A DNA stretch of 64,000 bases from the IMG/VR virus record IMGVR_UViG_3300035208_008180. The stretch is one strand, 5' to 3'. Below are positions 57,360-58,564 of this stretch, in pieces (the first letter of the stretch is position 1; every line of letters starts with the position of its first letter). The notes beneath the pieces were generated by a model. That model ran no database searches, was not told the DNA's origin, and saw nothing but the letters and a program-made list of their open reading frames with translations. A program made the position numbers and the translations under genes. This DNA comes from a virus. Lineage: Duplodnaviria; Caudoviricetes.

Positions 57360-57387
57360 ATTATACTTCAGAAATTTGAGTTGTAAA
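57360..57387 (-). promoter_or_regulatory. early promoter TTTACA-N16-TATAAT for Ubl-Ro
   Basis: Same repeated motif. Confidence 0.75.
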
Positions 57388-57397
57388 CAAGAAAAAA

Positions 57398-57523
57398 TCC
57401 GTCCAAGTTACAAAAACTGTTTTTGGTAAACAATGCAGGAATTGAACCAGCATTCTTCAGTTTTCAAGACTGACGCTCAACCATTGAGCTAATTGTTTGT
57501 AAGTTTTAGTGGTATGGGACGGA
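57398..57523 (-). ncRNA. Y1: complete tRNA-like cloverleaf (anticodon UGA, encoded CCA) enclosed by the Y-like stem
   Basis: Core 57424-57498: AAACAAU/AUUGUUU-ACCA, GCUC D arm, UCAGU-CUUGAAA-ACUGA, UUCAAUU T loop. Confidence 0.8.
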
Positions 57524-57526
57524 AAG

Positions 57527-57655
57527 TGGAGGGTGTTGGATTCGAACCAACATTTTTTCGTTTTCAGTGAAAAAAGTTACCTTTTGTTTGTATGTCTCTC
57601 AGGTGTGGGACAATTGCTTGTCCAAGTTTGGGAAACTGAACGTTTTTAACCCTCC
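57527..57655 (-). ncRNA. Y2: tRNA-like (anticodon GAA) with the permuted Y-like stem inserted in the D arm
   Basis: Acceptor GGAGGGU/ACCCUCC-A; T arm GUUGG-UUCGAAU-CCAAC; insert ACUUGGAC..GUCCCACAC..UACAAACA. Confidence 0.78.
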
Positions 57656-57665
57656 AAAGTATCAG

Positions 57666-57792
57666 CGGGGAAGATGGGATTCGAACCCATAATTTTTCCT
57701 TAACAGGGAAACTTTTACCAATTGTTTGTATGTCTCTCAGGTGTGGGATGGTCGCCCATCCAAGTTTGGGAAACTGAACTTCTAACTTCCCC
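57666..57792 (-). ncRNA. Y3: tRNA-like (anticodon GUU) with the Y-like stem inserted in the D arm
   Basis: Acceptor GGGGAAG/CUUCCCC-G; UUUCC-CUGUUAA-GGAAA; AUGGG-UUCGAAU-CCCAU. Confidence 0.8.
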
Positions 57793-57882
57793 ATGTGCCC
57801 GGTTTATAATTCTCTGCCTGCAACCGGAAACCCGGCAGAAAAGCCTCCAGTTATTGGTTTATCCCAAGAGGCGAGTAATCAG

Positions 57883-58008
57883 ACCCGGTGGTAGGAGTCG
57901 CACCTACAATCTTTTCCTTAGGATGGAAACGCTGTTTGTACGTCTCTCAGGTTTGGGATAATTTCTTATCCGAGTTTGGGAAACTGTTTGCTGTTTAGCT
58001 TCACCGGG
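57883..58008 (-). ncRNA. Y4: tRNA-like (anticodon CCU) with the Y-like stem inserted in or next to the D arm
   Basis: Acceptor CCCGGUG/CACCGGG; UUUCC-AUCCUAA-GGAAA; GUAGG-UGCGACU-CCUAC. Confidence 0.78.
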
Positions 58009-58013
58009 ATATT

Positions 58014-58172
58014 CATAAGGCAAACATTTGATCGTCCAAGTCGAAGAAACTGTTTTTTGCAACAATGTTGGATTCGCACCAACTACCGAAACTTTATGGA
58101 AGTTTTGCTCTACTGATGAGCTAATTGTTTGTAAGTTCCGTCAGTATGGGACGATCAAATGTTTGCCTTATG
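58014..58172 (-). ncRNA. Y5: tRNA-like cloverleaf (anticodon CAU) enclosed by the Y-like stem
   Basis: 24-bp perfect outer stem; GCUC D arm; AAACU-UCCAUAA-AGUUU; GUUGG-UGCGAAU-CCAAC. Confidence 0.8.
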
Positions 58173-58183
58173 TTGATTTTACC

Positions 58184-58360
58184 GACGCAAGCAAGTGTTG
58201 GCCCGTCCAAGTCGAAAAAGCTGTTTCACATAGTGACAGTTTAATAGACTGTTGCCTTTACCATTAGGCTAAAACACATTTTGGCGTGTTTGTTGGATTC
58301 GAACCAACAGATTGTTTGTAAGCTCTGTCTGTGTGGGACGAGCAAACACTTGCCTGCGTC
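58184..58360 (-). ncRNA. Y6: circularly permuted tRNA-like domain (anticodon AUU) opened at the variable loop
   Basis: Order is T arm, acceptor hairpin AAACACG-CCAAAA-UGUGUUU, D arm GCCU, anticodon ACAGU-CUAUUAA-ACUGU. Confidence 0.8.
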
Positions 58361-58532
58361 AACATCATCAAGCTTCCGTCTGTCCAAGTTGAAGAAGCTG
58401 TTCAACTTTTGACAGTTCCAATTACTGGTGCCTGACCGTTAGGCTACATTCCTTGCGGAATGATGGGAGTCGAACCCACTTATTTGTTTGTAAGCTCCGT
58501 CTGTATGGGACAGACGGAAGCTTGATGATGTT
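58361..58532 (-). ncRNA. Y7: circularly permuted tRNA-like domain opened at the variable loop
   Basis: 25-bp perfect outer stem; T arm GUGGG-UUCGACU-CCCAU; acceptor CAUUCC-GCAA-GGAAUG; D arm GCCU; atypical anticodon loop AAUUGGA. Confidence 0.8.
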
Positions 58533-58564
58533 TACAACTCAAATTGTCAAAGAACACAAAATTG

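What the first reader, a model, noticed from the sequence alone, without database searches (positions are those of the whole stretch)
57373..58556. RNA array is organised like an rRNA operon: boxA-like site and a 17-bp long-range closing stem
Seen in sequence: AATTTGAGTTGTAAACA (57373-57389) and TGTTTACAACTCAAATT (58529-58545) form a perfect 17-bp inverted repeat about 1.15 kb apart that brackets exactly the seven tRNA-like units. On the transcript the upstream arm is preceded by UGUUCUUUGACAA, similar to boxA. The downstream arm overlaps the -35 region of the Ubl-Ro promoter. Y5-Y7 also have about 24-25-bp outer stems. Inference: Nus-type antitermination and RNase III-type processing of a polycistronic precursor.
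Basis: partly seen in the sequence, partly recalled or inferred. Interest (0 to 1): 0.72.

Follow-up and report, generated by a model that had tools for sequence, protein, structure and literature searches.

The report
rRNA-style frame around phage Y-RNA array
A huge uncultured phage frames seven of its Y-RNA-like genes with a near-copy of the boxA signal and both strands of the closing helix that a Gemmataceae bacterium uses for its 23S rRNA precursor, so the phage probably gets this long non-coding transcript made and trimmed by the host's rRNA machinery.

Summary
The arms 57373-57389 and 58529-58545 are a perfect 17-bp inverted repeat. It is the longest such repeat (arms 150-3500 nt apart) in the whole 340-kb contig. 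It encloses seven of nine minus-strand Y-RNA-like units. A boxA-like 13-mer (58556-58544, minus strand) abuts the upstream arm and overlaps it by 2 nt.

The rRNA-operon reading is largely supported by comparison:
- BoxA plus the first 12 nt of the arm match, over 22 nt, the spacer boxA and pre-23S leader strand of an uncultured Gemmataceae MAG. That MAG's trailer strand, between 23S and 5S, carries the same 10-nt core as the phage's downstream arm.
- BoxA-like sites recur on the transcribed strand in this phage's tRNA clusters and in related Ubl-Ro loci (13 versus 1 on the other strand).
- Two related phages (L205, L175) have the same layout with unrelated arm sequences: boxA, then the arm, then an RNA array, then the second arm just before the Ubl gene. 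They differ from each other by four compensatory pair changes.

The helix is missing from 29 of 32 related loci with enough upstream sequence. Nus-factor loading and RNase III cleavage remain inferred. This scan has noted the same design around phage tRNA arrays in at least eight other genomes. The new point here is the Y-RNA cargo beside Ubl-Ro.

The parts
58751..58778 (-). Array promoter, TTGACA-16-TATAAT (12 of 12 consensus positions). It is a different class from the phage's own promoter family.
   Evidence: a homologous TTGACA-type promoter heads the array in L137
58562..58700 (-). Y8, the first Y-RNA-like unit. It lies upstream of boxA and outside the inverted repeat. Its closing stem ends 8 nt before boxA, in the position of a boxB-type hairpin.
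   Evidence: (D1, D6)
58544..58556 (-). boxA-like element, UGUUCUUUGACAA on the transcript
   Evidence: Its 12-nt core GTTCTTTGACAA is identical to the Gemmataceae spacer boxA. Variants stand before arrays in L128, L129, L137, L175 and L205.
58529..58545 (-). Leader arm of the long-range helix, AAUUUGAGUUGUAAACA. Its first 12 nt equal the Gemmataceae pre-23S leader strand.
57390..58528 (-). Seven Y-RNA-like units, Y7 to Y1. Y7 is 58358-58535, Y6 58173-58371, Y5 58014-58172, Y4-Y2 lie at about 57560-58010, and Y1 is 57395-57527. Y1 and Y5 carry full tRNA-like domains.
57373..57389 (-). Trailer arm, UGUUUACAACUCAAAUU. It contains ACAACUCAAA, the core of the Gemmataceae 23S trailer strand. It is also the -35 hexamer and spacer of the Ubl-Ro promoter.
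57360..57387 (-). Ubl-Ro promoter, one of about 36 copies in the low-GC contigs (26 on contig C200) of the phage promoter class gTTTACAAC-N5-tTTCTGAAGTATAAT
57086..57316 (-). Ubl-like ORF of 76 aa ending in Gly. It is the first mRNA gene after the trailer arm.
   Evidence: homologs found upstream of Ro in 64 loci
56978..57076 (-). Y0, a Ro-stem motif without a tRNA domain, between Ubl and Ro
   Evidence: I5, D1
55393..56961 (-). Divergent Ro/TROVE-like protein
   Evidence: PDB 9l5y TROVE, E 0.013; more than 2259 homologs

Best explanation
Proposed mechanism. The array is transcribed leftwards from the sigma-70-type promoter at 58778-58751 as one long untranslated precursor. After the first unit (Y8) the RNA carries a boxA that mimics the host's rRNA spacer boxA. 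Host NusB/NusE and the other rrn antitermination factors load there. That makes RNA polymerase resistant to Rho and to the U-tract after Y1, and it holds the adjoining 17-nt leader strand near the RNA exit channel. When the trailer strand emerges 1.14 kb later, the two pair, as in a pre-23S leader-trailer helix. The helix is 17 bp perfect, or about 26 bp counting a G-U-rich extension into boxA. It closes the seven-unit block, and host RNase III probably cuts it. The cut would free the block for RNase P/Z-type trimming into single Y RNAs and separate it from Y8 and from the downstream Ubl-Ro mRNA.

Shown: the sequence elements, their statistics, the copy of a Gemmataceae boxA plus helix, the recurrence of the layout, and the covariation in relatives.

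Inferred: Nus-factor binding, antitermination, helix formation in vivo, and RNase III cleavage.
For: 1. Host copy. GTTCTTTGACAATTTGAGTTGT (22 nt) is identical in the window and in two rrn loci of an uncultured Gemmataceae MAG. There it lies after two tRNAs and 349 nt before 23S. Its complement core ACAACTCAAA lies between 23S and 5S, and leader and trailer form a duplex of -36.1 kcal/mol. The window's trailer arm contains the same core.

2. Same geometry elsewhere.
- L205: hairpin, boxA 1985-1997, arm 1996-2011, 16 tRNAs, arm 4665-4680, then the Ubl gene from 4711. The duplex is 16 bp perfect, -30.8 kcal/mol, z -5.0.
- L175 (Ro 75% identical to L205): boxA 70-82, arm 79-95, 11 tRNAs, arm 1269-1284, Ubl ATG at 1343. 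Of the 11 pairs homologous to L205, four carry compensatory changes and one is a wobble.

3. boxA-like sites.
- There are 19 on the Ro strand against 1 on the other strand in 255 kb upstream of 59 Ro loci; non-redundant, 13 against 1.
- Seven of the 13 lie within 100 nt of a tRNA or Y motif, where 22% is expected (p = 0.013).
- In this phage, 3 of 5 hits lie in RNA arrays on the transcribed strand, two of them just after the first tRNA that follows an ORF.
- None is followed by a -10 element.

4. The 17-bp repeat is the top outlier of the 340-kb contig, and the MFE fold forms it.

5. The published rrnTAC model places the leader strand just downstream of boxA so that it can pair with the trailer (PMC10250234). 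The published boxA consensus is GYTCTTTAANA (PMC5725501).
Against: - No long helix between the Ubl trailer and upstream sequence was found in 29 of 32 non-redundant related loci; in L175 only the targeted boxA check found it. The closest relatives with DNA (L136, Ro 75%; L137, Ro 65%) have no such arm and no separate Ubl promoter.
- The trailer arm doubles as a promoter -35 and spacer, so DNA-level constraints also act on it.
- Four to seven nt of the leader arm compete with the Y7 outer stem.
- A U-tract after Y1 could stop transcripts before the trailer arm is made.
- boxA sits after one unit, not at the very start of the array.
- The host assignment rests on one MAG; only 3 of 81 sampled Gemmataceae genomes have a match with three or fewer mismatches.
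- There is no transcript or cleavage data.
Confidence: 0.6

Rival explanations
1. The helix and boxA are real RNA elements but have another role. The helix may simply close and protect the multi-Y precursor, or help it fold, without RNase III. The boxA-like site may bind Nus factors to chaperone RNA folding or to modulate Rho, rather than for classical antitermination.
For: In E. coli the leader-trailer helix matters for 30S assembly independently of RNase III, and boxA mutations cost only 2-3 fold (PMC10250234). BoxA can also promote Rho termination (PMC12360218). In WIN, L205 and L175 the trailer partly pairs with boxA itself.
Against: The phage copies the very strands that the host pre-23S stem uses, and RNase III cleavage of that stem is established in E. 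coli. I have nothing that separates processing from closure.
Confidence: 0.2
2. The repeat acts on DNA. The two arms are sites for recombination (an invertible 1.17-kb segment) or for a DNA-binding regulator that loops the array promoter region to the Ubl-Ro promoter.
For: The repeat is perfect, it overlaps a promoter -35, and the closest relative has an array of different length.
Against: - No recombinase gene was found among the ten neighbouring ORFs scanned.
- Inversion would leave both junction sequences unchanged and create no new promoter.
- The arm is not a palindrome.
- There is no other copy on the phage's contigs with its promoter class.
- The L205 and L175 arms are not promoters, and one pair is a G-U wobble next to a bulge.
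- The leader arm copies a host RNA helix strand.
Confidence: 0.07
3. The match arose by chance or as a by-product. A promoter half was duplicated in inverted orientation next to a fortuitous boxA look-alike.
For: GTTTACAAC is the phage's -35 consensus, present about 36 times in the low-GC contigs, so nine of the 17 nt are constrained anyway. BoxA 13-mers with two or fewer mismatches are not enriched genome-wide.
Against: The match continues through the promoter's variable spacer into the conserved boxA flank. The plus-strand copy has no -10. The same register (the arm starts on the last AA of boxA) recurs in L205. There is a 22-nt identity to a host rrn leader.
Confidence: 0.05
4. The arms are terminal inverted repeats of a small mobile RNA-gene cassette.
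For: Perfect inverted ends of 16-17 bp flanking 1.1-2.7 kb are typical of transposable elements. Array content differs between close relatives, and an HNH gene sits inside the L136 array.
Against: There is no transposase inside, no flanking target duplication (read), and only a single copy in the genome. The L175 helix has a bulge and a wobble. The position is fixed relative to boxA and Ubl in three phages.
Confidence: 0.03

Closest known systems
Bacterial rrn operon: spacer boxA plus the pre-23S leader-trailer (RNase III) helix, specifically that of an uncultured Gemmataceae MAG (L237/L293)
   Same: The same 12-nt boxA core, and the same 10 nt following it as the 5' strand of a long-range helix. 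The 3' strand has the same core. The 5' strand starts directly after boxA. The cargo is a long untranslated structured RNA.
   Different: The cargo is seven Y-RNA-like units (1.14 kb) instead of 23S rRNA. The helix is 17 bp perfect rather than about 22 bp with a wobble and a mismatch. The trailer also serves as a promoter -35. A structured RNA unit stands in place of the upstream tRNAs and spacer. Function has not been tested.
boxA-dependent Nus-factor antitermination outside rRNA: lambdoid nut sites, suhB, and CRISPR arrays
   Same: A boxA placed at the head of a long untranslated or poorly translated transcript would protect it from Rho (PMC5725501; PMC12360218). The CRISPR-array case is from my own knowledge (Stringer et al. 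2020, eLife); it was not read here.
   Different: Those cases have no leader-trailer helix abutting boxA. Here boxA sits inside an array of structured RNAs of a lytic-type huge phage, and no phage N-like protein has been identified.
Bacterial Y RNAs / YrlA next to Ro (Rsr)
   Same: The RNAs have a Ro-type stem joined to a tRNA-like module and are encoded beside a Ro/TROVE gene. Phage examples are known (PMC4201824; phage Ro60 structure PMC12135203).
   Different: Known loci have one to a few Y RNAs. I found no description of a boxA or an enclosing helix. The Rfam YrlA model reaches only 27.7 bits against a gathering score of 69.
Phage tRNA arrays framed like rRNA operons, noted earlier in this scan on other genomes (unpublished AI notes)
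   Same: BoxA, then a leader strand that pairs with a trailer behind the array, copied from the host's rrn. The notes report covariation among relatives. L205 and L175 here are of that type.
   Different: In the window the cargo is Y-RNA-like units, and the module is tied to a Ubl-Ro operon.

Membership tests
rrn-type boxA (NusB/NusE loading site) | Sequence matches the boxA consensus (E. coli UGCUCUUUAACAA; gamma-proteobacterial GYTCTTTAANA) | tested here: met
   GTTCTTTGACA matches 10 of the 11 positions of GYTCTTTAANA, with G in place of A at position 8. The L129 variant matches fully.
rrn-type boxA (NusB/NusE loading site) | Same as the boxA of the host's own rRNA operon | tested here: inconclusive
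   It is identical (12-nt core plus 10 flanking nt) to the spacer boxA of one Gemmataceae MAG, but the host is not proven. The high-GC bacterium in the same bin has CGTTCTTTGAAAA, which matches 11 of 12 core positions with a different flank.
rrn-type boxA (NusB/NusE loading site) | On the transcribed strand, downstream of a promoter and ahead of long untranslated RNA | tested here: met
   It lies 195 nt downstream of the -10 of the array promoter and ahead of 1.14 kb of RNA genes. Strand bias across loci is 13 to 1.
rrn-type boxA (NusB/NusE loading site) | Binds NusB/NusE and confers resistance to Rho | not testable with these tools
   NusB, S10 and RNase III genes occur only on the high-GC contigs of the bin, not on the phage contigs.
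rRNA-type leader-trailer helix | Complementary strands flank the RNA cargo and form a long helix | tested here: met
   17 bp perfect, about 26 bp with its extension. The duplex is -25.0 kcal/mol, z -5.8, and the helix is present in the MFE fold.
rRNA-type leader-trailer helix | The 5' strand lies just downstream of boxA | tested here: met
   The arm overlaps the last two nt of boxA in WIN and in L205, and overlaps boxA by 4 nt in L175. The Gemmataceae pre-23S leader is laid out the same way.
rRNA-type leader-trailer helix | Pairing is kept through compensatory changes in relatives | tested here: inconclusive
   This is met in the sister lineage: L205 versus L175 shows four double changes and one wobble in 11 pairs. 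For the window's own helix no close relative with DNA was available. The helix is absent from 29 of 32 loci.
rRNA-type leader-trailer helix | Cleaved by RNase III | not testable with these tools
   No transcript data are available.
Y RNA / YrlA | Reaches the gathering score of the Rfam YrlA model | tested here: not met
   The best hit is 27.7 bits against 69. The units share the design but are not members of the family as modelled.
Y RNA / YrlA | tRNA-like module joined to a conserved stem, encoded next to a Ro/TROVE gene | tested here: met
   Y1 and Y5 score 69.9 and 46.3 bits on the tRNA model. The conserved stem motif occurs nine times. The neighbouring 522-aa protein has only weak TROVE similarity (E 0.013).

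The most novel reading that the evidence does not exclude
The closed seven-unit RNA may itself be the functional product: a poly-Y scaffold, held shut by an rRNA-mimicking helix, that binds several Ro rings (and Ubl-pathway proteins) at once. The phage would recruit the host's rRNA antitermination complex mainly as a co-transcriptional chaperone to fold it. Pairing of the trailer with the boxA flank would then strip the Nus factors off just before the Ubl-Ro genes, so that these are translated normally.
Probability: 0.12. Interest if true: 0.85.

Novelty: new variant of a known kind. Interest (0 to 1): 0.7.

Why it matters
If true, huge phages borrow the host's dedicated rRNA transcription and processing route (boxA-loaded Nus factors plus the leader-trailer helix) to express long blocks of non-coding RNA. 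Here the cargo is Y-RNA-like units that serve a phage Ro/ubiquitin-like system, not tRNAs.

This gives three things:
- a sequence-based host predictor, because the copied leader pointed to Gemmataceae;
- a testable answer to how kilobase-long untranslated phage transcripts escape Rho;
- a defined precursor for studying how multi-unit Y RNAs are made.

I found no paper describing boxA or leader-trailer helices around phage RNA arrays in the library searched. This scan has flagged the tRNA version repeatedly.

Tried and rejected
- boxA as a -35 element. TTGACA, TTAACA and TTTACA lie inside the boxA variants, but no -10 follows at 16-18 nt in WIN, L128 or L129 (read). Rejected.
- Upstream arm as a plus-strand promoter. 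It has the -35 consensus and the same spacer but lacks the TCTGAAGTATAAT part. Rejected.
- Genome-wide enrichment of the 13-mer. With two or fewer mismatches there are 120 hits against 106 controls. This was uninformative; only the stricter regex and the context were informative.
- 17-mer boxA-plus-flank scan of viral contigs. More than 113 hits, none next to Y motifs. No use for finding relatives.
- Y7-core pattern scan of viral contigs. One hit (L219, the L133 phage), with no boxA or arm there.
- RNAduplex tiling for L128 and L129. Nothing above shuffled controls.
- A 14-bp complement for the boxA flank of the tRNA cluster at C200:240471-240484. It lies 9 kb away inside an ORF at 231465-231478. 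I treat it as unproven, possibly chance.
- Closest relative (Ro 95% identical). The contig is listed, but its DNA is not held.
- The high-GC bacterium of the bin as host. Its rrn spacer boxA flank differs, and it lacks the 18-mer. It is probably a binning artefact.
- L129 scored z 5.2 in the gapless helix scan, but the partner lies inside a tRNA gene. Not followed up.

Full report
**What is there**

The window is the last 64 kb of a 340-kb, 40% GC contig (C200). The contig carries 65 tRNA genes (ARAGORN calls, two of them the tRNA-like parts of Y1 and Y5) and a tmRNA, all on the minus strand. It was binned with a 70% GC bacterium, so it is almost certainly a huge phage.

The finding lies in a minus-strand RNA array. 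Reading along the transcript, the parts are:
- a consensus TTGACA-16-TATAAT promoter (58778-58751);
- a first Y-RNA-like unit, Y8;
- the 13-mer UGUUCUUUGACAA (58556-58544);
- the 17-nt upstream arm (58545-58529);
- seven units, Y7 to Y1;
- the downstream arm (57389-57373);
- a 76-aa ubiquitin-like ORF, one more stem motif (Y0), and a divergent Ro/TROVE gene.

**Check of the observation**

The two arms are perfectly complementary over 17 nt. This is the longest perfect inverted repeat with arms 150-3500 nt apart anywhere in the 340-kb contig. Mirror-repeat controls reach only 15. The 17-mer has no further near copy on the phage's contigs with its promoter class.

The arms enclose seven of the nine units. 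The downstream arm is the -35 and spacer of the Ubl-Ro promoter. That promoter belongs to a phage promoter class, gTTTACAAC-N5-tTTCTGAAGTATAAT, with about 36 copies in the low-GC contigs, 26 of them on contig C200. The plus-strand reading of the upstream arm has the -35 and the same variable spacer but no -10, so it is not a second promoter.

The Y7 homolog in L137 has a stem of about 27 bp of entirely different sequence. These are therefore the conserved basal stems of the units.

The MFE fold of the 1416-nt transcript forms the long-range helix: 13 bp of the arm plus nine more pairs reaching into boxA. The remaining 4 nt of the arm go to the Y7 stem instead. The isolated leader/trailer duplex is -25.0 kcal/mol, z -5.8.

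**Is the boxA-like site more than a look-alike?**

In this phage, the regex [TA]G[TA]TCTTT[GAT]ACAA hits five times in 1.08 Mb of low-GC contigs and never in 5.2 Mb of high-GC contigs. Three of the five hits are inside RNA arrays on the transcribed strand. One is the Y array. The other two lie just after the first tRNA that follows an ORF in two tRNA clusters.

The Ro protein has more than 2259 relatives, and I fetched about 90 loci. In 255 kb upstream of Ro in 59 of these loci, boxA-like 13-mers occur 19 times on the Ro strand and once on the other strand. After removing duplicate loci the count is 13 to 1. Seven of the 13 lie within 100 nt of a tRNA or Y motif, where 22% would be expected (p = 0.013).

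In L137 (Ro 65% identical), boxA stands directly before the Y7 homolog, after three units. In L128, L129 and L205 a short stable hairpin precedes boxA, and the hairpin sequence differs in each. That is the boxB-boxA order of rrn leaders. None of these sites is followed by a -10 element.

**Is the long-range helix more than a local accident?**

Most relatives lack it. Among 32 non-redundant loci with at least 1.5 kb upstream of Ubl, only the window (17 bp) and L205 (16 bp) show a long perfect helix between the last 160 nt before Ubl and sequence further upstream.

L205 is nonetheless a striking parallel:
- boxA at 1985-1997;
- the arm at 1996-2011, starting on the last AA of boxA exactly as in the window;
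- 16 tRNA genes;
- the second arm at 4665-4680, about 30 nt before the Ubl start;
- then Y units and Ro.
Its arm sequence is unrelated to the window's.

L175, whose Ro is 75% identical to that of L205, has the homologous module around 11 tRNAs. Its helix is bulged and wobble-containing. Of the 11 pairs homologous to L205, four carry compensatory double changes.

The layout "boxA, leader strand, RNA array, trailer strand, Ubl" is therefore under selection in at least two lineages of this phage group.

**Where the signals come from**

A note from earlier work in this scan suggested comparing with host rrn spacers. I scanned one genome per prokaryotic species for the 18-mer GTTCTTTGACAATTTGAG and got 86 hits. 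Two of them are rrn loci of one uncultured Gemmataceae MAG, where the identity extends to 22 nt.

In that MAG the site follows two tRNAs and lies 349 nt before 23S. The best complement of its flank, ACAACTCAAA, lies between 23S and 5S. Leader and trailer form a duplex of -36.1 kcal/mol. This is a pre-23S leader-trailer helix whose 5' strand starts right after the spacer boxA.

The window's upstream arm shares its first 12 nt with that leader, and the downstream arm contains the same trailer core. Other Gemmataceae genomes keep GTTCTTTGACAA but vary the flank. Only 3 of 81 sampled genomes match with three or fewer mismatches, and many MAGs lack rrn operons. One Ro homolog in the protein search is labelled Gemmataceae by its source (P0109).

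The high-GC bacterium of the bin has a different spacer flank, so it is probably not the host.

**How it most likely works**

By analogy with the rrn antitermination complex, boxA recruits NusB/NusE and partners. The modified polymerase resists Rho on the untranslated RNA and keeps the leader strand close until the trailer emerges, when the helix forms (PMC10250234; PMC12360218). In rRNA that helix is an RNase III site.

Here the cut would release a seven-unit precursor and detach it from the Ubl-Ro message. The phage contigs carry no RNase III, NusB or S10 genes, so host factors must do the work. All of this paragraph is inference from sequence mimicry.

**Rivals**

A structural or chaperone role without RNase III cleavage cannot be separated from the main model with these data. 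DNA-level explanations (inversion, operator pair, mobile-element ends) are unlikely for several reasons:
- the leader copies an RNA helix strand of a host;
- the L205 and L175 arms are not promoters;
- the L175 helix tolerates a wobble and a bulge;
- no recombinase gene was found among the ten neighbouring ORFs scanned, and no second copy exists on the phage's contigs with its promoter class.

**Novelty**

BoxA and leader-trailer helices are textbook features of rrn operons. Y RNAs with tRNA-like domains next to Ro are also known, including in phages (PMC4201824). I found no paper that places boxA or a leader-trailer helix around phage RNA arrays. This scan has seen the tRNA version in at least eight other genomes. 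The window adds a Y-RNA cargo and a link to a Ubl-Ro operon. I class it as a new variant of a known kind.

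Noticed in passing
G000:C200, C226, C242, C102; in the window at 57360-57387, 59067-59094 and 55309-55336: A very uniform phage promoter class, gTTTACAAC-N5-tTTCTGAAGTATAATgg, occurs about 36 times, nearly all on one strand. A few host-type TTGACA-16-TATAAT promoters, including the array promoter, form a second class. This may reflect early versus middle/late timing.
   Followed up: partly
G000:C200:74248-74260 and 240484-240496 (outside the window): BoxA-like sites sit just after the first tRNA of two tRNA clusters that directly follow ORFs. 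The flank of the second has a 14-bp perfect complement 9 kb downstream (231465-231478), but that lies inside an ORF, so its meaning is unclear.
   Followed up: partly
L175:1285-1310: Eleven nt after the trailer arm lies GATTGTAAAGATCC, a near-complement of the locus's own boxA. The WIN and L205 trailers also pair weakly with boxA. The trailer may occlude boxA once the array has been transcribed.
   Followed up: no
L205:2240-2830 and 4600-4660: The tRNA genes are separated by repeated hairpin-forming spacers (CAATCGCAAATCG-type units, with stems up to 22 bp). These may be inter-tRNA processing sites.
   Followed up: no
Contig of P0001 (ENA ERZ1426851, no DNA held): The relative with a 95%-identical Ro has only about 740 nt between the 97-aa ORF and Ubl, against about 1560 nt here. 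The array gains or loses several units over short evolutionary distances.
   Followed up: no
L136:404-970: An HNH endonuclease gene is inserted inside the Y-RNA array of the relative with a 75%-identical Ro.
   Followed up: no
window 58813-59052 (-) versus 58879-59172 (+): Two overlapping ORFs lie on opposite strands upstream of the array. A phage-class promoter (59094-59067) favours the minus-strand 79-aa ORF, while the gene caller chose the 97-aa plus-strand frame on the related contig.
   Followed up: no
G000 as a whole: The bin mixes about 1.08 Mb of 37-50% GC contigs (several share the phage promoter class) with about 5.2 Mb of 70% GC bacterial contigs. The only 16S and the NusB, S10 and RNase III genes lie on the high-GC contigs.
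   Followed up: partly
window 57393-57400: The closing stem of Y1 is followed by a run of six U just before the trailer arm. Similar U-runs follow the last units in L129, L131 and L135. This may be a weak terminator that antitermination would have to override.
   Followed up: no
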